Notes under the pieces: generated by a model | What the model was told of the DNA's origin: nothing | The model's database searches: none | Seen by the model: the letters and a program-made list of their open reading frames with translations, nothing else | DNA from: a virus | Lineage: Duplodnaviria > Heunggongvirae > Uroviricota > Caudoviricetes | Virus record (IMG/VR): IMGVR_UViG_2706794682_000018 | Direction: 5' to 3' (one strand) | Length of the DNA: 16,334 nucleotides | Shown here: piece after piece, positions 1 to 14,782 of the stretch | Layout of the letters: each line of letters starts with the position of its first letter | Numbering within the stretch: the first letter of the stretch is position 1 | Program-made: the position numbers and the translations under genes

Positions 1-465
1 AGACGGATACACACCTTTCGTACACTTTGCCCATACCGGCGGCTTACCATCCGGATACTGGATCTTGTTTGTAAAAACCTCGCTTTCAATAAATTTTTTT
101 CCGTGACAGCAGGGGCACTGTTTTTTGCTCGCCGCGCTACGGGCATAATCTTCAAACGCATACGAAGCCATAATACGCATCACTGCCGGTTTTATTTCTG
201 CCGGGAGTTTTCTTAACGCCGCCACGCGATCACACCGACTGAGTGCATATTCTGTCAGCAATTCTGTTGCCCGCTCTCTGTCATTCATACTAATGCCCAT
301 TTTCCCAAGGAACGCAGAAACCCCCATCTCAGCCCGATTCTGTGTCATGCCCTGCGCGGCCATCACATCAGTGATACTCAGCGCATCTTTCGACGTTGAG
401 GCCGATGCATCAGTCAGGCCGGGGGATTTTGGGGAGTAGTATTTCGGTAAATCTTCCAGTTTCAT
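1..465 (-). CDS. Late-gene antitermination protein Q, N-terminal 155 codons; 3' end lies beyond position 1
   Basis: Minus-strand ATG at 465-463, then 155 sense codons with no stop down to position 1 (checked codon by codon). Translation contains CPCCHGKK...C, a Q-type zinc-finger-like motif. Start overlaps the rusA stop (ATGA). Position after rusA matches lambdoid nin-Q modules. Confidence 0.7.
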   Translation of the reverse strand, partial: MKLEDLPKYYSPKSPGLTDASASTSKDALSITDVMAAQGMTQNRAEMGVSAFLGKMGISMNDRERATELLTEYALSRCDRVAALRKLPAEIKPAVMRIMASYAFEDYARSAASKKQCPCCHGKKFIESEVFTNKIQYPDGKPPVWAKCTKGVYPS

Positions 466-842
466 TTTTTGACCTGCCCTTCAAGCATTATGGGATAAAT
501 CTTCACCCCCAGACGTCCACCAGATACTGGCTGAGCACGAACGATATTGATTTCATCAAACTGCTCATCGTCCATTAGCAACCCCGCATGCGTCAGCGCA
601 TCCAGCGGCGCTTTCAGAATATTGTCCAGGTCACGGCGGCGCTTATCCGGTGGTTCTGCAATAATTTTTATTGCCAACCTTCCGGACAGGCTTAATTTCA
701 GCCGCTGCTGGCGAACAATAAGCGCCACTGCCCGGCGATAACGCTCCCCGGCTTTTGATACAAAATATGTGCTGCCACGACGACGCCAGTAAGTGTTCAC
801 CGTCGGCGGGTAAGGTAAAACAAATTCTATGCGCTCGGTCAT
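462..842 (-). CDS. rusA: Crossover junction endodeoxyribonuclease RusA (Holliday junction resolvase)
   Basis: 126-aa ORF with ATG at 842-840. Sequence (YPPTVNTYWRRRG ... RRRDLDNILKAPLDALTHAGLLMDDEQ) matches the RusA family as I recall it. Located just upstream of Q as in lambdoid prophages. Confidence 0.85.
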   Translation of the reverse strand: MTERIEFVLPYPPTVNTYWRRRGSTYFVSKAGERYRRAVALIVRQQRLKLSLSGRLAIKIIAEPPDKRRRDLDNILKAPLDALTHAGLLMDDEQFDEINIVRAQPVSGGRLGVKIYPIMLEGQVKK

Positions 843-1901
843 TTATGCTTTCCACTTCAGAACACCCGAATTTCTCGCGTGCATTAAAAAACGAATCAGC
901 AACAACAGCTGACTGCCGTGTTTCTCTTCAAAATCTTTTACTCCGGCATGTAGTTCGTTACGGCATTTACGGCATAACGGAATAACAAACAAATCATCAG
1001 CCTTTGTTCCCATCCCTCCCAGTCCATGACCAATGATGTGATGCGGATCATCTGCCTGATTGCCACACGTCATGCATTTCTGCGTTTTTACCCAGCGCGT
1101 GTATACAGGCATCTCTTCCCGTTGTGATTTCTGGCGCTGGAGATACTGAGCCGGTGACTCCGGATCAACGGCAATGCTGACCACCGTCTTTTCCTGTGGT
1201 GGGTTCTGTTGCTGGTGGACGTGAGGCAGTAACGCAATATTTTTTGTGCGCTGCTTCAGTATGCTGGTGGCTGTCTGCTCTCCCGGTATGATGTCGCTTT
1301 CACTGTACACAGAGCGAATTTTTTCCGCACGCAACCCCAGCGAACGACGTAATACCGCTTCCGGTAGCGCGTCCGCCACCTGATTGCGGACCGCCCACCA
1401 GGATAATTCAGCCAGAGATAATTCACGCTCCTGCGTACCGCTTATTGCGTGACCGATGACGTCAATCATCCATGCTGACAGGTTTTGATGAGCAAGTTGC
1501 TCGAGTGATTCGGATGTCTGGTCACGCAGCTGGTTGTCGCAGTGCCAGCACAACACCATTGCGCCGGTACCATAACGGTGAATGACGGTTTCGCTGTGAT
1601 GATAATCGCCGTGTGGCCACTGGCAGGATTTAATATGGCGCAACAGCCAGTCAGACAATGCACCAGCACCACCAGCAGCACGAATCACCCGTGCGTTACT
1701 GAAAAACGGCAGCAATGTTTTGTCTTCCACCAGCGGCTGGCGAGCGGCAGGAACGACCCCGGACGGCAGATTACGCATGCTTTTTGGTTCCGGCTCCACC
1801 AGTATTCTGCCGTTATGGAATGCTGACATTGATTCACGGCCTGGCTTAACGATAACCAGACCGAGTTCCGGTACCAGAACAGGTCGAAGTAATACCCGCA
1901 C
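843..1901 (-). CDS. DUF968-family prophage protein (YdfU-like) with C-terminal Cys/His motif
   Basis: 352-codon ORF whose stop abuts the rusA ATG (TAAATG). The longest ORF starts at GTG 1901-1899 with GGAGGT upstream; in-frame ATGs further in are alternatives. C-terminal C..C...HH...CRKCRNELH looks like an HNH-like zinc motif. Size and position next to Q resemble YdfU of Qin-type prophages (from memory). Confidence 0.7.
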   Translation of the reverse strand: MRVLLRPVLVPELGLVIVKPGRESMSAFHNGRILVEPEPKSMRNLPSGVVPAARQPLVEDKTLLPFFSNARVIRAAGGAGALSDWLLRHIKSCQWPHGDYHHSETVIHRYGTGAMVLCWHCDNQLRDQTSESLEQLAHQNLSAWMIDVIGHAISGTQERELSLAELSWWAVRNQVADALPEAVLRRSLGLRAEKIRSVYSESDIIPGEQTATSILKQRTKNIALLPHVHQQQNPPQEKTVVSIAVDPESPAQYLQRQKSQREEMPVYTRWVKTQKCMTCGNQADDPHHIIGHGLGGMGTKADDLFVIPLCRKCRNELHAGVKDFEEKHGSQLLLLIRFLMHARNSGVLKWKA

Positions 1902-1976
1902 ATTACCTCCAGATCCGTTGCTGGAATGTGCGGGACGGACGCGTTGGCCGTTCGGAGTAAGGGAGCCTGACGGAGA

Positions 1977-2258
1977 TTATCCAGTGACGGTAGTCGAGGC
2001 TAAGGGCTTTTTTAACCTCGCATCCGCGCCTGCGGTAACACTGAATGAGCCATTCGGCCTGTTCTTCAGTGCATGGGGGATGCTGGTACCAATCAGATTT
2101 AAATGCGTGAGAGCGCCGCCCGTGCCTGCTGGCAAAGACGGCTGAATTATCAGAATTGTGTAGTCTGGAAGGCAGTGGCTGACAATAGCGCCATTCTCAA
2201 CGCGCACAGTATAGAGGCCATCTTCACTAAAAATTTCACGTAATTCTTCGATTTTCAT
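1977..2258 (-). CDS. Small ORF, copy 1 (MKIEELREIFSEDGLYTVRVENGAIVSHC...); only the first ~29 codons are shared with copy 2; occupies the position of rem in Qin-type prophages
   Basis: ATG at 2258-2256 preceded by GGAAGGA 8 nt upstream. The first 29 codons are shared with the ORF at 3497, with 4 synonymous and 2 conservative changes. The C-terminal 64 aa is unique and low-complexity, so true length is uncertain. Confidence 0.35.
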   Translation of the reverse strand: MKIEELREIFSEDGLYTVRVENGAIVSHCLPDYTILIIQPSLPAGTGGALTHLNLIGTSIPHALKNRPNGSFSVTAGADARLKKPLASTTVTG

Positions 2259-2379
2259 CAACAGAATCCTTCCAGATAAATAGCACTCCCCTGTTCGGGG
2301 TCCATCCCTCTTCTCCCTGCGCGCTACTTAAGTATTTTTGATTCTATTCCGGCACCATCTAAAACTTCAAACGCGTTGA

Positions 2380-2410
2380 AAATAAAAACAAAAACCCGCC
2401 GAAGCGGGTT
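2380..2410 (-). terminator. Intrinsic terminator downstream of hok copy 1
   Basis: On the minus strand, stem CCCGC, loop TTCG, stem GCGGG (plus 2395-2408), followed by TTTTTGTTTTTATTTT. It lies about 70 nt after the hok stop. Confidence 0.6.
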
Positions 2411-2478
2411 AAGTGTGGGTGCATTGAGGATGCCTGCCCCATCAGAGGTGGCGAGGGATTTCTCCCCCGCCTGGTCTC

Positions 2479-2634
2479 TTACTCCTCAGGTTCGTAAGCT
2501 GTGAAGACAGCGACCTCCGTCTGGCCGGTTCGAATTCGTACCTCGCAGAGGTCTTTCCTCGTTACCAGTGCCGTCACTATGACGGTTAAACAGATGACGA
2601 TCAGGGCGATTAACATCGCCTTTTGCTGCTTCAT
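2479..2634 (-). CDS. hokD: Hok/Gef-family type I toxin, 51 aa (HokD/RelF-like membrane peptide)
   Basis: MKQQKAMLIALIVICLTVIVTALVTRKDLCEVRIRTGQTEVAVFTAYEPEE, which I recognise as the Hok family (hydrophobic helix plus conserved Cys). ATG at 2634-2632 with AAGGAG 9 nt upstream. The 70-aa ORF in the track is an in-frame upstream extension. Confidence 0.85.
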   Translation of the reverse strand: MKQQKAMLIALIVICLTVIVTALVTRKDLCEVRIRTGQTEVAVFTAYEPEE

Positions 2635-2693
2635 AGCCTGCTTCTCCTTGCCTTTCGGCATGTAAGAGGCTAACCTACATGTGCAAAGCATGA

Positions 2694-2783
2694 AATTGGC
2701 CTCAGATTAATGTTAAGCGTCTTGCCGGACGCGTAATGTTAACTGGGGCTTTTCTCTATCTGCCTTTTGGTGTTCATGCCTGA
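2694..2783. repeat. Inverted repeat arm A (90 bp, perfect), inside the hok copy 1 leader region
   Basis: Exact reverse complement of 2916-3005, verified base by base at both ends and at internal checkpoints. Pairing breaks at 2693/3006 and 2784/2915. Confidence 0.9.
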
Positions 2784-2915
2784 GACAGATAGCCTCAAGC
2801 ACCCGCTGCAATTCTACTTAACTCTCCTTTTCCCGCAAACCGTTTTTATCCCCAGCGGCAAATCGAATACACCACCAGCGCCACCGCCATCGCAATTCCT
2901 ACCGTTGTTAATGCT

Positions 2916-3005
2916 TCAGGCATGAACACCAAAAGGCAGATAGAGAAAAGCCCCAGTTAACATTACGCGTCCGGCAAGACGCTTAACATTAATCTGAGGC
3001 CAATT
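2916..3005. repeat. Inverted repeat arm B (90 bp, perfect), 132 bp from arm A
   Basis: Exact reverse complement of 2694-2783. It overlaps the last 17 nt of the minus-strand 60-aa ORF 2989-3171. Confidence 0.9.
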
Positions 3006-3171
3006 GCAGGAGTTTGAAAAAACGCTTGTGGAATGCGTAGTTACACACACGCTTAAAGTCTGCGTGTATCCACTCACCTATTTTGATTTGATGCAGAAAA
3101 TCGCAACTCTCCGGCGTCGCCGGGAGAAGTAATCCGGAAGAGGTTTGTTTGACCAGTTGTATATGTGCCAT
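2989..3171 (-). CDS. Hypothetical 60-aa ORF (MAHIQLVKQTSSGLLLPATPESCDFLHQIKIGEWIHADFKRVCNYAFHKRFFKLLQLASD)
   Basis: ATG at 3171-3169 with GGAGAAAG upstream. No family recognised. Its 3' end runs into inverted-repeat arm B. Confidence 0.2.
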   Translation of the reverse strand: MAHIQLVKQTSSGLLLPATPESCDFLHQIKIGEWIHADFKRVCNYAFHKRFFKLLQLASD

Positions 3172-3209
3172 CGGCTTTCTCCGGTGGCACGGTGTTACAC
3201 AGCAGGAGT

Positions 3210-3497
3210 TCAATCCTGCTCAAGATTGTAGATGAGTTTATTCTTCAGCAAAAGCAGAAAACCAGCCTTAAAACCAATCTCTTTCAAAACCCGTAATGAT
3301 GTGACAAATTCGTCCTCACGCAAAATAAAACCGTCCGTCAGAAGTCCATTACAAAAATAAAATAACACAGCACCGCTCTTCCTTTGTTGAGATTGCAAAC
3401 ATCTAATGCGGCAATGGCTGACAATCGCTCCATTCTCAACGCGCACAGCATAGAGGCCATTTTCACTAAAAATTTCACGCAATTCTTCGATTTTCAT
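3210..3497 (-). CDS. Small ORF, copy 2 (MKIEELREIFSENGLYAVRVENGAIVSHC...); shares only its first ~29 codons with copy 1
   Basis: ATG at 3497-3495 with the same GGAAGGA site as copy 1. The 162-bp block 3411-3572 is about 94 percent identical to 2172-2333. The C-terminal tail is unrelated to copy 1. Confidence 0.3.
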   Translation of the reverse strand: MKIEELREIFSENGLYAVRVENGAIVSHCRIRCLQSQQRKSGAVLFYFCNGLLTDGFILREDEFVTSLRVLKEIGFKAGFLLLLKNKLIYNLEQD

Positions 3498-3619
3498 CTT
3501 CAGAATCCTTCCAGATAAATAGCTCTCCCCTGTTCGGGGTCCATCCCTCTTCTCCCTGCGCGCTACTTAAGTGAGTCGATTCTATCTGCGAAGGTGCGCG
3601 AATCAAATTCACCGGAAAT

Positions 3620-3670
3620 AAACAACAAAAAACCCGCCGAAACGCTGAGAGATCACAGCGATGGGCGGGT
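3620..3670 (-). terminator. Intrinsic terminator of hok copy 2 (two-tier hairpin plus T-run)
   Basis: Outer stem CCCGCC/GGCGGG (3633-3638 / 3664-3669) with inner stem CGCTG/CAGCG, followed on the minus strand by TTTTTTGTTGTTTATTT. Homologous to the copy 1 terminator with an insertion in the loop. Confidence 0.5.
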
Positions 3671-3746
3671 TAAGTGCGGGTGCGTTGAGGATGCCTGACA
3701 CATCAGAGGTGGGCGGGGATGGGATCAGCTCCCCGCCCGGTCACTC

Positions 3747-4060
3747 TTACTTCCTGGNNNNNNNNNNNNNNNNNNNNNNNNNNNNNNNNNNNNNNNNNNN
3801 NNNNNNNNNNNNNNNNNNNNNNNNNNNNNNNNNNNNNNNNNNNNNNNNNNNNNNNNNNNNNNNNNNNNNNNNNNNNNNNNNNNNNNNNNNNNNNNNNNNN
3901 NNNNNNNNNNNNNNNNNNNNNNNNNNNNNNNNNNNNNNNNNNNNNNNNNNNNNNNNNNNNNNNNNNNNNNNNNNNNNNNNNNNNNNNNNNNNNNNNNNNN
4001 NNNNNNNNNNNNNNNNNNNNNNNNTGAAGCAGATAGCCTCAAGCACCCGCAGTCATTCTA
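3747..4060 (-). other. Second hok-family locus (paralogue of copy 1) whose coding region and leader are hidden by the N run 3758-4024
   Basis: 3661-3757 is homologous to the copy 1 hok 3' region 2410-2490. A stop TAA sits at 3749-3747 with ..RK just upstream. After the N run, 4025-4057 is homologous to copy 1 at 2780-2815 (CAGATAGCCTCAAGCACCCGC). Confidence 0.5.
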
Positions 4061-4105
4061 CTTACCTCGCCAATATGAAATCAATCAGAAAGGTGCCCCA
4101 TAAAA

Positions 4106-4792
4106 TCACTCCTTCTCTTCTTTACCGTAGTGGAGTTGACCAATTTTGATAAGAGGGCGTCCCTGAGATTTGCGGTGTAGATTGGTATCGCGCAGAGAAT
4201 ACACACAGCCACAATATTCCTGCTGATAGAATTTTTCGCGCTTGCTGATTTCAATCATACGGGACGAGCCGCCCTGCTTGCGCCAGTTATAATCCCAGTA
4301 CACCATGCCCGGATAATGCGCGACGGCTCGCCGCCCACAGTCGTTAACCTGCTGCATATTTTTCCAGCGTGAAATGCCCAGTGAACTGCTGATCACACTG
4401 AAACCATTTTCAGCGGCGTACAGCGCTGTCCGCTCAAAACGCATGTCAAAACACATGGTGCAACGGATCCCTCGTTCGGGCTCCCATTCCATTCCTTTGG
4501 CTCGTTCAAACCAGTTGTCTGTGTCGTAATCAGCATCAATAAACGGCACGCCGTGTTGTTCAGCAAAGCGAATATTCTCATCCTTACGAATTAAATACTC
4601 TTTCTGAGGATGAATGTTCGGGTTGTAGAAAAAGATGGTGTAGTCGATTCCCGAGGCCTGAAGCGCCTCCATCACCTCACCGGAACATGGAGCACAGCAA
4701 GAGTGCAGTAGTAGTTTGTTTGCCCCGTTTGGGAGCTCCAATTTGGGCCGTTTGAAATCAGCAACTGTCATAAATATGTTTATTGGGGTCAT
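4106..4792 (-). CDS. DUF208 / QueH-like (epoxyqueuosine reductase family) Cys-rich protein, 228 aa
   Basis: Clean 228-codon ORF. N-terminal [11 protein letters not shown] and FFYNPNIHP motifs, plus further Cys pairs (RCTMC, EYCGC), match my recollection of the DUF208/QueH family. The assignment is from memory, not a search. Confidence 0.5.
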
Positions 4793-4939
4793 AAAAATAT
4801 CAAAGAGTGTAGCATTAGAACGGGGCTATCGGAAACAGATGTGTGACTGCTCCCCGCCCTTTCGGGTGGTCTCCTGATGATTTGAGGGTGCAGAAATCCC
4901 TCCGGTTAAGGATTAAATTTTTAACAGTGCTAAATTTAA

Positions 4940-5296
4940 TTATTCAGTTCTGGATTTTGTCGCCCTGCGTATCCGCGCTTTCGCGTTACGCTCAATCTGT
5001 ATCAGCTTTTCTATATTTCTCCGCCTTTCCTGTTCCTCCTGGCGCAATAGCCTTACATCATCTGCCAGTCTGGTTTCTCTTTTTGCCACAGAGAGCATCC
5101 AGTCAAACGGCTCCACAACCGCACCGCAGATTTTACAGCGGACCTGACGCTCTTTTTCGTCAACCCGTACAGAGGCGTGATGGCAATATGGTCTTTCCGA
5201 TGGCTCATAAAGAAAATTAACCTGATTACGAGGGTCATCCTCTTTTACCGGAAATAAAACGATATTGCTTAACTCATCTTCTGGTTTTATTTCCAT
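4940..5296 (-). CDS. Hypothetical protein, 118 aa, Cys/His motif (CHH...CKIC) and basic coiled-coil-like C-terminus
   Basis: ATG at 5296-5294 preceded by AGGAGAGGAG. The track ORF extends upstream to 5353 but the internal ATG has the strong ribosome-binding site. No family recognised. Confidence 0.6.
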   Translation of the reverse strand: MEIKPEDELSNIVLFPVKEDDPRNQVNFLYEPSERPYCHHASVRVDEKERQVRCKICGAVVEPFDWMLSVAKRETRLADDVRLLRQEEQERRRNIEKLIQIERNAKARIRRATKSRTE

Positions 5297-5353
5297 GCTC
5301 CTCTCCTTTGATGCGAATGCCAGCGGTAATTGAAGCCTGATAGCTAATTTCAT

Positions 5354-5776
5354 TCACAGTATCGCCTCCTGAAAATTACCCTGATAGAAAGCCAGTACAC
5401 GCTGCATAGCTTCGCTCTTCCGGCACTCGCGACAGATTATATTCAGGCGCCTGTCGTAGCGGCGTATTTCTCCGTCAGGTAATGACCAGATAAGGTCCGG
5501 ATCAACAACAACCGGTTTCCTCACCTTTACTCTCGAGAGTTTTTTGCGGGCGCTTTGCCAGTCCTTGCGAGCCTGTTCAGACGGGAATAAGCCGTAGCCA
5601 GAATTATATACATCACCACTTGCGACCAGTTCTATGCATAAGCGACCGACAGACGCACGACTGATACCTGTTTCATCTGACAACTGCCGAATCGTGACCC
5701 GACCGTCCTGATGCACGAGTTCCACAATTCGCGTCTTCAGTTCTTCCCGCTGTTCGGGAGTAAAAGGTTTCGCCAT
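5354..5776 (-). CDS. Hypothetical DNA-binding protein, 140 aa, helix-turn-helix-like (TIRQLSDETGISRASVGRL)
   Basis: ATG at 5776-5774 with AGGAGG upstream. Lies immediately downstream of the DnaC-like gene on the same strand. Confidence 0.7.
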   Translation of the reverse strand: MAKPFTPEQREELKTRIVELVHQDGRVTIRQLSDETGISRASVGRLCIELVASGDVYNSGYGLFPSEQARKDWQSARKKLSRVKVRKPVVVDPDLIWSLPDGEIRRYDRRLNIICRECRKSEAMQRVLAFYQGNFQEAIL

Positions 5777-5790
5777 AAATCCTCCTGAAA

Positions 5791-6537
5791 CTACTTAACA
5801 ACCCTCGAATGGCTAACATTCGGACGCCAGCTCTCCCAGTTAAAATTCACCCAGCGCCCGCCGTTCATGACCATGCGATCCATCACCCGCTCGCCGAGCA
5901 ATGTTTTCATCACCTCATAGTTCAGGTTTGTCAGCATCCCCACGCTGCGCATCGACGCTGTCCGGCGATCAACAATCTGGTGCAGCACCACCTGCTCGTT
6001 TTTCGTCTCGCGCTGAATGCCAATTTCATCAAGAACCAGCAGATCCACTTCGCACAGCTCCCGCAAAAATTTTTCGCCTGACTGCCCGTCGTCATAGCTG
6101 GCGTGCAGGGCGCTCATAACATCAGCCACGGTAACCACAATCACTGTCTGACCGTCTTTCAGCAGGCGATTCCCGATAGCTGCCGCTAAGTGGTTCTTCC
6201 CGGTACCAGGTTTTCCGCTGAACGCAAAATTTGTACACCCGGTCATCAGTTCATCAGCGATGGATTTCGCCTGACTCAACGCGTATCGCTGCGCTTCGTT
6301 CTGCACCTGGTAATTCGAAAACGAGCATTTGCGGTGCAATGGCTGGATGCCAGAGCGATTCAGAATTTTTTCCACCCGCAACTGACGATTCTGACGGTTG
6401 ATCTCCTCACAACGTTTCTGGCCTTCGGAAAGTTGCCACTCGCGCCACTCCGCTACCGTCTTGAATGGCGCGGTTACATGTGACGGGGCCAGTCTGCGGA
6501 TACGTTCAAGAACGTCGCCTGTCGCAATATTTTTCAT
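5791..6537 (-). CDS. ydaV: DnaC-like replication protein / helicase loader (lambda P analogue)
   Basis: 248 aa with Walker A GKPGTGKNHLAAAIG and Walker B LLVLDEIG. AGGGGG site upstream; start 6 bp after the ydaU stop. Confidence 0.9.
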   Translation of the reverse strand: MKNIATGDVLERIRRLAPSHVTAPFKTVAEWREWQLSEGQKRCEEINRQNRQLRVEKILNRSGIQPLHRKCSFSNYQVQNEAQRYALSQAKSIADELMTGCTNFAFSGKPGTGKNHLAAAIGNRLLKDGQTVIVVTVADVMSALHASYDDGQSGEKFLRELCEVDLLVLDEIGIQRETKNEQVVLHQIVDRRTASMRSVGMLTNLNYEVMKTLLGERVMDRMVMNGGRWVNFNWESWRPNVSHSRVVK

Positions 6538-10153: not shown

Positions 10154-10403
10154 NNNNNNNNNNNNNNNNNNNNNNNNNNNNNNNNNNNNNNNNNNNNNNN
10201 NNNNNNNNNNNNNNNNNNNNNNNNNNNNNNNNNNNNNNNNNNNNNNNNNNNNNNNNNNNNNNNNNNNNNNNNNNNNNNNNNNNNNNNNNNNNNNNNNNNN
10301 NNNNNNNNNNNNNNNNNNNNNNNNNNNNNNNNNNNNNNNNNNNNNNNNNNNNNNNNNNNNNNNNNNNNNNNNNNNNNNNNNNNNNNNNNNNNNNNNNNNN
10401 NNN

Positions 10404-14593: not shown

Positions 14594-14782
14594 ATGTATA
14601 AAATTACCGCCACTATTGAAAAGGAAGGTGGCACTCCTACTAACTGGACAAGATATTCAAAATCTAAACTAACGAAATCAGAATGCGAAAAAATGCTCTC
14701 AGGTAAAAAAGAAGCAGGCGTTTCCAGAGAGCAGAAAGTAAAACTGATAAATTTTAATTGCGAGAAACTTCAGTCCTCGTGA
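14594..14782 (+). CDS. ydaC: YdaC-like small protein, 62 aa
   Basis: ATG at 14594 preceded by GGAGGTG (MYKITATIEKEGG...). Upstream in-frame ATGs at 14582 and 14522 are alternatives. Confidence 0.65.
   Translation: MYKITATIEKEGGTPTNWTRYSKSKLTKSECEKMLSGKKEAGVSREQKVKLINFNCEKLQSS

What the first reader, a model, noticed from the sequence alone, without database searches (positions are those of the whole stretch)
2172..4060. Tandem, diverged duplication of a hok toxin module with the second toxin gene hidden in an N run
Block 2172-2333 is about 94 percent identical to 3411-3572 (offset 1239 bp). The terminator and hok 3' regions (2389-2490 vs 3628-3757) and the far-upstream leader (2780-2815 vs 4025-4057) are also homologous, so two hok-family loci sit in tandem between the QueH-like gene and DUF968. 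Only copy 1 is fully visible. Two type I toxin loci in one prophage nin region is unusual and, together with the inverted repeat, suggests recombination-driven remodelling.
Basis: seen in the sequence. Interest (0 to 1): 0.6.

Follow-up and report, generated by a model that had tools for sequence, protein, structure and literature searches.

The report
Two hok toxin loci joined by recombination
Two ordinary hok/sok toxin-antitoxin loci lie 1.24 kb apart in a Rac-like Escherichia prophage because two different phage gene blocks were joined untidily, not because one locus was duplicated; the arrangement is rare, but nothing in it is a new kind of system.

Summary
The repeats are real and lie at the stated coordinates. 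All genes in the finding are on the minus strand.

- **Copy 1 (mRNA about 2804 to 2386):** a complete hokD-type hok/mok/sok locus.
- **Copy 2 (about 4048 to 3620):** only its promoter, 5' end, last codons, 3' pairing element and terminator are visible. Two complete E. coli genomes match both flanks at 99-100% as one continuous locus. Each has 291 nt with an intact hokD where the window has 267 N.
- **Not an in-place duplication:** each copy is much closer to loci in other prophages (96% and 99-100%) than to the other copy (86%).
- **Origin:** the pair marks the joint between two alternative nin-region types.
  - One type reads QueH-hok-orf95-DUF1367.
  - The other reads 27-aa ORF-hok-orf-DUF968-RusA.
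  - The joint contains an 82-93 nt inverted copy of the hok leader (2916-3008), bounded by 6-10 nt microhomologies. It cuts DUF1367 after about 56 codons.
- **Private changes:** this joint and a 250-nt deletion at 2170/2171 occur in none of 5,426 complete E. coli genomes.
- **N runs:** their lengths are inexact, so 267 against 291 nt says nothing about a deletion.
- **Rarity:** a second hok within about 5 kb was seen in 1 of 164 sampled loci.

Low interest: known systems and a private rearrangement.

The parts
2386..2804 (-). Copy 1: full-length hok1 mRNA, from the 5' end GGGUGCUUGAGG (5' pairing element, tac) to the terminator
   Evidence: Rfam RF01794 hit at 2629-2804(-), 117.5 bits, model positions 1-157 of 157. 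In the minimum-free-energy fold, nt 1-12 pair with the 3' element. Energy -168.4 kcal/mol, z=-6.4 against shuffles.
2479..2634 (-). hok1 coding sequence, 51 aa: MKQQKAMLIALIVICLTVIVTALVTRKDLCEVRIRTGQTEVAVFTAYEPEE
   Evidence: Pfam PF01848 HOK_GEF, E=1.2e-23. Identical to the annotated HokD WP_000813254.1 of O103:H2 12009 and EC332.
2479..2691 (-). mok1: a 70-codon frame that starts 19 codons upstream of hok1 and is in frame with it
   Evidence: That chromosomal mok frames are in-frame extensions of hok (for example MokC = 19 aa + HokC) is from my own knowledge.
2648..2676 (+). Antisense (sok1) promoter-like site, TTGCCT-17-TAACCT
   Evidence: Read from the sequence by homology with R1 sok (recalled, not looked up). 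The same motif sits at this position in 120 of 153 sampled hok loci, and TTGACC-18-TAATCT in 15 more. It does not pass the generic sigma-70 consensus scan.
2684..2757 (+). Predicted Sok1 antisense RNA: free 5' tail, long hairpin, then GGGGCUUUUCUCU. The ends are inferred.
   Evidence: Fold of 2684-2770(+): -30.8 kcal/mol, z=-4.2. The ends are placed by analogy with R1 Sok; no transcript data.
2417..2429 (-). 3' pairing element of copy 1 (fbi; CCUCAAUGCACCC), which pairs with the mRNA 5' end
   Evidence: 5'-3' closing helix; sequence.
2393..2410 (-). Intrinsic terminator of hok1
   Evidence: 7-bp stem with 5 G-C pairs, followed by a T run.
2846..2923 (-). Remnant (25 codons) of a conserved, unannotated 27-aa hydrophobic ORF that normally precedes this type of hok locus. 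Its first 3 codons are replaced by the inverted arm.
   Evidence: MTWPEA[LF]TTVGIAMAVALVVYSICRWG is present upstream of hok in 36 of 127 sampled loci.
2916..3008 (+). Inverted copy of the hok leader / Sok body (core 2922-3003). It has no sok promoter and lacks about the first 13 nt of Sok. It is the filler at the recombination joint.
   Evidence: 93 nt, 99%. One search shows the junctions: on the left, TCAGGC shared with the hok1 leader, or TGCTTCAGGC with a hok2-type leader; on the right, CCAATT against CCAGTT of DUF1367. An RNA spanning both arms folds into one long hairpin, -210.5 kcal/mol, z=-21.5.
3004..3171 (-). DUF1367 gene cut to its first 56 or so codons
   Evidence: Pfam PF07105, E=7.6e-23, profile positions 1-57 of 198. 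Homology to the full-length genes of L001, L003 and L004 stops at 2987-3003. No C-terminal part is found in window 1-6000.
3210..3497 (-). orf95: intact small gene downstream of hok2. Its first 29 codons lie in the 163-nt repeat.
   Evidence: Annotated as hypothetical protein WP_000687440.1 in FDAARGOS_944. No Pfam family.
1977..2258 (-). Fusion ORF: the first 29 codons of an orf86/95-family gene joined out of frame to the next gene by a 250-nt deletion at 2170/2171
   Evidence: window 1700-2170 and 2171-2852 map to L002 3001-3471 and 3722-4402. One search gives the translations. In one search, every listed genome that covers the block has about 249 or more extra nt.
3620..4048 (-). Copy 2: hok2 mRNA, inferred. 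Visible: the 5' end GGGUGCUUGAGG (4037-4048), the last 3 codons plus stop (3747-3757), the 3' pairing element (3678-3690) and a terminator with a 23-nt loop insertion (3631-3671).
   Evidence: In L001 the same locus is 99-100% identical on both flanks and gives an RF01794 hit of 117 bits.
3758..4024 (.). N run hiding hok2 codons 1-48, mok2, the sok2 promoter and Sok2 (inferred from relatives)
   Evidence: L001 has 291 nt here with an intact hokD, WP_014532198.1. The other N run is also inexact: 250 N against 248 nt in 38 listed genomes with 100%-identical flanks.
4055..4084 (-). hok2 promoter-like site, TTGATT-18-TAGAAT
   Evidence: The TAGAAT box is conserved in all six aligned alleles.
4106..4792 (-). 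QueH gene, upstream neighbour of hok2
   Evidence: Pfam PF02677, E=1.9e-65. QueH sits next to hokD in all 30 listed hits, where 4,478 of 5,426 E. coli genomes matched some part of the query.
843..1901 (-). DUF968 gene, followed by RusA at 462-842: the nin-region type that normally accompanies hok1
   Evidence: Pfam. Synteny with L002 and L005.

Best explanation
The window is a Rac-like lambdoid prophage whose early rightward genes all lie on the minus strand. Lambdoid prophages of E. coli normally carry one hokD-type hok/mok/sok locus at a fixed place in the nin region, in one of at least two alternative contexts:
- **Type A:** QueH - hok - orf95 - DUF1367 - DUF1364 - DUF1133.
- **Type B:** gene - 27-aa ORF - hok - orf86 - orf92 - DUF968 - RusA - Q.

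Here a type-A genome was joined by illegitimate, microhomology-guided recombination to a type-B genome. The break in A lies downstream of its hok, inside DUF1367 at about codon 56. The break in B lies upstream of its hok, at the start of the 27-aa ORF. The hybrid therefore inherited both parents' hok loci in the same orientation, 1.24 kb apart.

The joint carries an 82-93 nt inverted copy of the hok leader as filler. That is the signature of template switching during repair or replication. A further private 250-nt deletion lies just downstream of hok1.

**Function.** Copy 1 has every sequence element of a working hok/sok system. Copy 2 very probably does too, under the N run. Each would work as hok/sok loci do:
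- A stable hok mRNA is held inactive by pairing of its 5' and 3' ends.
- An unstable antisense Sok RNA blocks mok and hok translation.
- The Hok membrane toxin is made when Sok is lost.

If copy 2 equals its closest relatives, the two loci share an identical 238-nt block covering Sok, its target and hok codons 1-30. The two Sok RNAs would then be interchangeable, and RecA could readily delete the interval between the copies.

**Shown:** the repeats, the junction sequences, the element content of copy 1, and the contexts in relatives.

**Inferred:** the content of the N run, the mechanism and order of the events, and all expression and activity.
For: **Repeats and elements**
- The repeats and the inverted repeat are at the stated coordinates.
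- Copy 1: RF01794 at 117.5 bits; Hok Pfam E=1e-23, and the 51-aa sequence equals annotated HokD; in-frame mok; 5'-3' closing helix in the fold, z=-6.4; terminator; conserved antisense promoter motif in 135 of 153 loci.

**Copy 2**
- Window 2987-3757 and 4025-6000 match FDAARGOS_944 at 99.1% and 99.8%, collinear. That genome holds an intact hokD and an RF01794 hit of 117 bits in the 291 nt under the mask.

**Separate ancestry**
- Copy 1 against O103 12009: 96.0% over 682 nt. Against EC332: 95.6% up to position 2921.
- Copy 1 against the copy-2 proxy: 86.2%.
- Parental contexts A and B each carry a single hok.

**Junctions**
- Homology to the natural upstream flank of hok1 ends at 2921.
- Homology to full-length DUF1367 starts at 2987-3003.
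- Between them lies the inverted leader, bounded by microhomologies TCAGGC / TGCTTCAGGC and CCA(A/G)TT.
- The C-terminal part of DUF1367 is absent from window 1-6000.

**Private to this source**
- No E. coli genome of 5,426 spans the joint.
- Three junction oligomers are absent from the collections scanned: the right-junction 39-mer from species-representative genomes and IMG/VR, a right-junction 27-mer from JGI metagenomes, and the left-junction 30-mer from species-representative genomes.

**Shared block**
- A 238-nt perfect block (2546-2783) is shared by copy 1 and the copy-2 proxy.
Against: - The coding part, mok and the sok promoter of copy 2 cannot be seen. The N run is 24 nt shorter than the sequence in the closest relatives, although N-run lengths are demonstrably inexact here.
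- No near-identical type-B parent was found. The best match is about 96%, so the donor is unknown.
- The joint exists in no other sequence in any collection searched, so it rests on this one assembly.
- There are no expression data for any element.
- The sok promoter does not pass a generic consensus scan.
Confidence: 0.75

Rival explanations
1. In-place tandem duplication of one hok module followed by divergence.
For: Two co-oriented units of about 660 nt share homologous blocks in the same order. Type I toxin-antitoxin loci such as ibs/sib and ldr/rdl are known to occur as tandem repeats (PMC2887945).
Against: - Each unit has far closer relatives elsewhere (96% and 99-100%) than its partner (86%).
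- The 3' untranslated regions, the promoters and the Hok C-termini (TAYEPEE against VDYESRK in the proxy) are allele-specific and are shared with separate phage lineages.
- The sequence between the units is a truncated DUF1367 plus an inverted filler, not a duplicated spacer.
- The left edge of the 163-nt block is a deletion scar.
Confidence: 0.04
2. Assembly or scaffolding artefact. The second copy, or the inverted joint, was created by mis-joining contigs at the multi-copy hok repeat, and the N run is an unresolved repeat gap of estimated size.
For: - The joint and the 250-nt deletion occur in no other sequence searched.
- Both N runs have lengths that disagree with relatives whose flanks are identical: 250 against 248, and 267 against 291. 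Estimated gap sizes would behave this way.
- The hok2 N run coincides with the stretch that would be a perfect 238-nt repeat of copy 1. The same leader occurs three times within 1.3 kb.
Against: - The two flanks of the N run are collinear with one continuous locus in two complete genomes, so the join across the gap is correct.
- The microhomologies at the inverted joint are only 6-10 nt, too short for a k-mer graph to create the joins. The junction sequences must therefore exist in reads (inference).
- Template-switch joints of this kind are a known outcome of repair in living cells.
- The description of the genome collection tool says some stretches are masked on purpose, which would explain the N runs without any assembly problem.
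Confidence: 0.12
3. The inverted arm is a working part rather than a scar. Read-through from the phage early promoter would produce a promoter-less Sok-like antisense, or a 93-bp double-stranded RNA hairpin with the hok1 leader. Either would tie hok silencing or RNase III cleavage to prophage induction.
For: - The arm lies on the transcribed (minus) strand, downstream of orf95 and the DUF1367 fragment.
- It contains the Sok hairpin and U-rich tail.
- An RNA across both arms folds into one perfect long hairpin, z=-21.5.
Against: - The arm lacks the sok promoter and about the first 13 nt of Sok. In R1 that 5' tail starts target recognition (my own knowledge, not tested here).
- The arm is private to this sequence, so there is no sign of selection.
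- Its ends sit at microhomologies and it destroys two genes, as a repair scar would.
Confidence: 0.07

Closest known systems
hokD (relF) and other chromosomal or prophage hok/mok/sok loci of E. coli (Hok/Gef family, Pfam PF01848; Rfam RF01794)
   Same: - Hok1 is identical to annotated HokD WP_000813254.1.
- The leader matches RF01794 over its full length.
- The in-frame mok, the 5'-3' pairing and the antisense promoter motif are present.
   Different: None in kind. K-12 hokD in the Qin prophage is described as lacking its upstream regulatory part (Pedersen & Gerdes 1999, recalled, not checked here). Copy 1 here is complete.
QueH-hokD-orf95-DUF1367-DUF1364-DUF1133 block of E. coli FDAARGOS_944 / 943 (NZ_CP065613.1, NZ_CP065615.1)
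   Same: 99-100% identical to window 2987-3757 and 4025-6000, so it is a proxy for copy 2 and its context.
   Different: - It has one hok only and a full-length DUF1367.
- It has 291 nt where the window has 267 N.
- It has no inverted arm.
27-aa ORF-hokD-orf86-orf92-DUF968-RusA-Q block of E. coli EC332 (NZ_AP039429.1) and O103:H2 12009 (NC_013353.1)
   Same: About 96% identical to window 1700-2921, so it is a proxy for the donor of copy 1.
   Different: - It has one hok only.
- It holds the 250 nt that are deleted in the window.
- Its 27-aa ORF is intact.
hok/sok of plasmid R1 (parB)
   Same: Same architecture and presumed mechanism: hok, an overlapping mok, antisense Sok, and 5'-3' fold-back of the mRNA.
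   Different: - The sequence is diverged.
- In R1, mok is in a different frame from hok (recalled).
- R1 hok/sok is on a plasmid and has a shown role in post-segregational killing.
Tandem arrays of type I toxin-antitoxin loci (ibs/sib, ldr/rdl, zor/orz)
   Same: Several co-oriented toxin/antisense units lie close together (PMC2887945).
   Different: Those arrays are local duplications within one intergenic region. Here the two units come from different phage lineages and are separated by gene fragments.
IMG/VR contig UViG_2695420579_000006 (L132)
   Same: Two co-oriented hok loci in one phage-derived contig.
   Different: There the repeat is 629 nt at 99.4% identity, 2,482 nt apart, with an IS3-family element after the first copy. 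That is a recent duplication or IS-linked event, with no inverted arm.

Membership tests
hok/sok type I toxin-antitoxin (Hok/Gef family), copy 1 | Hok/Gef toxin ORF of about 50 aa | tested here: met
   PF01848 E=1.2e-23, 82.9 bits against a cut-off of 22. Identical to annotated HokD.
hok/sok type I toxin-antitoxin (Hok/Gef family), copy 1 | Conserved structured leader carrying the Sok target (Rfam RF01794) | tested here: met
   117.5 bits against a gathering score of 59, model positions 1-157 of 157.
hok/sok type I toxin-antitoxin (Hok/Gef family), copy 1 | Overlapping mok reading frame upstream of hok | tested here: met
   70-codon ORF at 2691-2479, in frame, starting 19 codons upstream of hok.
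hok/sok type I toxin-antitoxin (Hok/Gef family), copy 1 | Long-range pairing of the mRNA 5' end with a 3' element (tac/fbi) | tested here: met
   The minimum-free-energy fold pairs nt 1-12 with CCUCAAUGCACCC near the 3' end; z=-6.4.
hok/sok type I toxin-antitoxin (Hok/Gef family), copy 1 | Antisense sok gene with its own promoter | tested here: inconclusive
   TTGCCT-17-TAACCT on the + strand at 2648-2676, conserved in 120 of 153 loci. The predicted RNA folds well, z=-4.2. The site fails the generic sigma-70 scan, and there are no transcript data.
hok/sok type I toxin-antitoxin (Hok/Gef family), copy 1 | Toxicity of Hok and repression by Sok | not testable with these tools
   Needs an experiment.
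hok/sok type I toxin-antitoxin (Hok/Gef family), copy 2 | Hok ORF, mok, Sok target and sok promoter | not testable with these tools
   All lie under N run 3758-4024. They are present in the 99-100% identical relatives.
hok/sok type I toxin-antitoxin (Hok/Gef family), copy 2 | Visible ends: promoter, 5' pairing element, 3' pairing element, terminator, last Hok codons | tested here: met
   TTGATT-18-TAGAAT at 4084-4055. GGGUGCUUGAGG at 4048-4037 and CCUCAACGCACCC at 3690-3678 are read. The direct repeats with copy 1 are 85-88% identical.
Locally duplicated tandem type I toxin-antitoxin array (ibs/sib or ldr/rdl style) | Units are each other's closest relatives and arose by duplication in place | tested here: not met
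   The copies are 86% identical to each other, against 96% and 99-100% to loci in other prophages.

The most novel reading that the evidence does not exclude
The promoter-less inverted Sok-like arm (2916-3008) is transcribed as part of the prophage early operon. It then acts either as an extra antitoxin made only on induction, for both hok loci, or as a built-in RNase III site, through the 93-bp hairpin it forms with the hok1 leader. On this reading the private rearrangement is a functional rewiring of two type I toxin loci.
Probability: 0.06. Interest if true: 0.5.

Novelty: already known. Interest (0 to 1): 0.2.

Why it matters
The result matters little beyond annotation. It shows how mosaic recombination between lambdoid prophages can stack two toxin-antitoxin loci in one prophage. 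It also preserves a cleanly readable template-switch joint: inverted filler, 6-10 nt microhomologies, one truncated gene and one decapitated small ORF.

If both loci are active they probably share one Sok specificity. The predicted 238-nt identical block would make the pair prone to deletion. The case also warns against reading N-run lengths in such windows as true lengths.

Tried and rejected
- **Finding the source or a second example of the joint.** Exact junction oligomers were scanned against species-representative genomes, IMG/VR and JGI metagenomes. All returned nothing. Megablast of the joint against 5,426 E. coli genomes found no contiguous match.
- **Reading the 24-nt shortfall of the N run as a real deletion or a short-leader allele.** Natural short alleles do exist, with a leader of 123-126 nt against the usual 143-146, and would give about 268 nt. 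I rejected this as evidence because the other N run is also off: 250 N against 248 nt in the 38 listed genomes with 100%-identical flanks and no IS insertion.
- **Rfam scan at a relaxed threshold over 2300-4150.** It found no hit for the inverted arm or for the visible ends of copy 2. It gave only weak sub-threshold hits (isrK, rsmX) on the hok1 terminator region, which I take as chance.
- **Pfam on orf94, orf95 and the 25-aa remnant.** No family matched.
- **Insertion model.** I considered whether copy 1 plus the arm was inserted into DUF1367. I rejected this because the C-terminal part of DUF1367 is nowhere in window 1-6000.
Full report
**Where we are.** The window is a Rac-like lambdoid prophage of Escherichia. 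Rfam finds RalA at 14600-14778. The right half is collinear with kilR-ydaE-racC-recE-recT-ralR-xisR-intR of E. coli Rac prophages. The replication and nin-region genes, including everything in the finding, lie on the minus strand. Pfam confirms these neighbours:
- QueH at 4106-4792.
- A DUF1367 fragment at 3004-3171.
- DUF968 at 843-1901.
- RusA at 462-842.

| Copy 1 | Copy 2 | Length | Identity |
|---|---|---|---|
| 2171-2333 | 3410-3572 | 163 nt | 94% |
| 2404-2459 | 3665-3720 | 56 nt | 88% |
| 2379-2406 | 3617-3644 | 28 nt | 79% |
| 2781-2827 | 4025-4071 | 47 nt | 85% |

There is also a 93-nt, 99% inverted repeat, 2691-2783 / 2916-3008. The N run is 3758-4024, and a second one lies at 10154-10403.

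**Copy 1 is a complete hokD-type locus.**
- Rfam RF01794 matches 2804-2629(-) over the whole model, at 117.5 bits against a gathering score of 59. The family is named 'sok', but the match is on the hok mRNA strand and ends at the hok start codon.
- The 51-aa ORF at 2634-2479 hits Pfam HOK_GEF at E=1e-23. It is identical to annotated HokD WP_000813254.1.
- A 70-codon in-frame mok starts at 2691.
- The 419-nt RNA from 2804 to 2386 folds with its first 12 nt paired to CCUCAAUGCACCC near the 3' end, z=-6.4. This is the fold-back arrangement known from hok mRNAs.
- A terminator sits at 2410-2393.
- On the opposite strand, TTGCCT-17-TAACCT (2648-2676) is at the position of the R1 sok promoter (position recalled from memory). 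The motif is kept in 120 of 153 sampled hok loci, and TTGACC-18-TAATCT in 15 more.
- The RNA predicted from that promoter folds into a long hairpin followed by a U-rich tail, z=-4.2.

**Copy 2.** The visible parts are:
- A promoter-like TTGATT-18-TAGAAT at 4084-4055.
- The mRNA 5' end GGGUGCUUGAGG at 4048-4037.
- The last three codons and the stop at 3757-3747.
- The 3' pairing element at 3690-3678.
- A terminator with a 23-nt insertion in its loop.

Two complete genomes, FDAARGOS_944 and FDAARGOS_943, match window 2987-3757 (99.1%) and 4025-6000 (99.8%) as one uninterrupted locus. Where the window has Ns they hold 291 nt containing an intact hokD (WP_014532198.1; C-terminus VDYESRK instead of TAYEPEE) and a 117-bit RF01794 match. 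The join across the gap is therefore correct. A Hok gene under it is very likely, but it cannot be seen here.

**N-run length.** The 267 N are 24 nt fewer than in those relatives. Short natural alleles of the Sok-target hairpin exist (leader 123-126 nt against the usual 143-146) and would give about 268 nt. However, the other N run is also off. It has 250 N where the 38 listed E. coli genomes with 100%-identical flanks and no IS insertion all have 248 nt of kilR/ydaE. N-run lengths here are not exact, and I draw no conclusion from the difference. I cannot tell whether the Ns are deliberate masks or estimated scaffold gaps.

**Not a duplication but a recombinant joint.**
- Copy 1 with its flanks (1700-2921) is about 96% identical to prophages with the order 27-aa ORF - hokD - orf86 - orf92 - DUF968 - RusA - Q (O103:H2 12009, EC332).
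- Copy 2 belongs to prophages with the order QueH - hokD - orf95 - DUF1367 - DUF1364 - DUF1133.
- Each of these parental types has one hok.
- The two copies are only 86% alike overall.

The joint can be read directly:
- Homology to the natural upstream flank of hok1 runs to 2921.
- Homology to full-length DUF1367 genes begins at 2987-3003.
- Between them lies an inverted copy of the hok leader (core 2922-3003).
- The left junction shares TCAGGC with the hok1 leader, or TGCTTCAGGC with a hok2-type leader.
- The right junction shares CCA(A/G)TT within a 12-of-16 similarity.

DUF1367 is cut after about 56 codons, and its remainder is absent from window 1-6000. A conserved, unannotated 27-aa hydrophobic ORF loses its first three codons.

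Inverted filler bounded by short microhomologies points to template switching during break repair or replication. This is inference. A second private change is a 250-nt deletion at 2170/2171. It fuses the first 29 codons of the orf86/95-family gene, out of frame, to the next gene. It also creates the left edge of the 163-nt repeat.

**Rarity.**
- No complete E. coli genome of 5,426 contains the joint or a comparable pair.
- The junction oligomers tested are absent from the collections each was scanned against: species-representative genomes, IMG/VR and JGI metagenomes.
- Of 164 hok loci fetched with about 5 kb on each side, one (L132) has a second hok. That is a 629-nt, 99.4% direct repeat 2,482 nt apart, next to an IS3-family element.
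- None of those loci has an inverted leader arm.
- Tandem repetition as such is a known habit of type I toxin-antitoxin loci, and E. coli O157 Sakai alone carries 14 Hok/Gef genes (PMC2887945).

**Consequences (inferred).** If copy 2 equals its relatives, positions 2546-2783 of copy 1 are repeated perfectly in copy 2: 238 nt covering hok codons 1-30, mok, the sok promoter and Sok. The two Sok RNAs would then be interchangeable, and the direct repeat would be a good substrate for RecA-mediated deletion.

The inverted arm lacks the sok promoter and about the first 13 nt of the predicted Sok, so it is most simply a scar. If read through from upstream, it would form a 93-bp hairpin with the hok1 leader, -210.5 kcal/mol, z=-21.5. 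Nothing suggests this was selected for.

**Artefact rival.** Because the joint is unique to this sequence, an assembly artefact cannot be excluded. Two points argue against it. Microhomologies of 6-10 nt are too short for graph-based mis-joins. Both flanks of the gap are collinear with real genomes. I give this rival about 0.12.

**Verdict.** It is wrong on origin, because the pair was not made by duplication. The systems are known, and the arrangement is a private structural variant of a defective prophage. Interest is low.

Noticed in passing
window 10154-10403: A second N run (250 N) covers the 3' three-quarters of kilR and the start of ydaE. The 38 listed E. coli genomes with 100%-identical flanks and no IS insertion have 248 nt there, so the N-run length is not exact.
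   Followed up: yes
window 2846-2923 (-); intact in L003 about 4100-4183, L004 about 5270-5352, and L005: A conserved, unannotated 27-aa hydrophobic ORF (MTWPEA[LF]TTVGIAMAVALVVYSICRWG) lies just upstream of the hok promoter in 36 of 127 sampled hok loci. In L003 and L004 its ATG overlaps the stop of the preceding gene (ATGA). In the window its start is replaced by the inverted arm.
   Followed up: partly
L036 and L131 against window 2700-2750 (alignment): The Sok-target hairpin of hokD-type leaders comes in at least two unrelated alleles. The long one (AGTTAACATTACGCGTCCGGCAAGACGCTTAACATTAATCT) is in most loci. A form 21 nt shorter (ACCCGACTATAAATCGAAGT) is in a few. These may be different Sok specificities.
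   Followed up: partly
L132:1930-2558 and 4412-5040 (IMGVR_UViG_2695420579_000006): Two hok loci form a 629-nt, 99.4% direct repeat 2,482 nt apart. An IS3-family element (orfA/orfB) starts immediately after the first hok. This was the only other double-hok case among 164 sampled loci.
   Followed up: partly
window 2170/2171: A private 250-nt deletion relative to every listed E. coli genome that covers the block. It fuses 29 codons of the orf86/95-family gene, out of frame, to the next gene, which loses its start codon.
   Followed up: yes
window 2341-2370 (-) and 3579-3606 (-): Promoter-like sites (TTGAAG-18-TAGAAT and TTGATT-16-TAGAAT) sit just downstream of each hok terminator, ahead of the small orf94/orf95 genes. 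The first 29 codons of those genes (MKIEELREIFSE.GLY.VRVENGAIVSHC) are conserved while the rest varies between phages.
   Followed up: no
window 14600-14778 (-): A full-length RalA antitoxin sRNA (Rfam RF02694, 225 bits) lies next to the ralR position. The prophage therefore carries a further type I toxin-antitoxin system besides the two hok loci.
   Followed up: no
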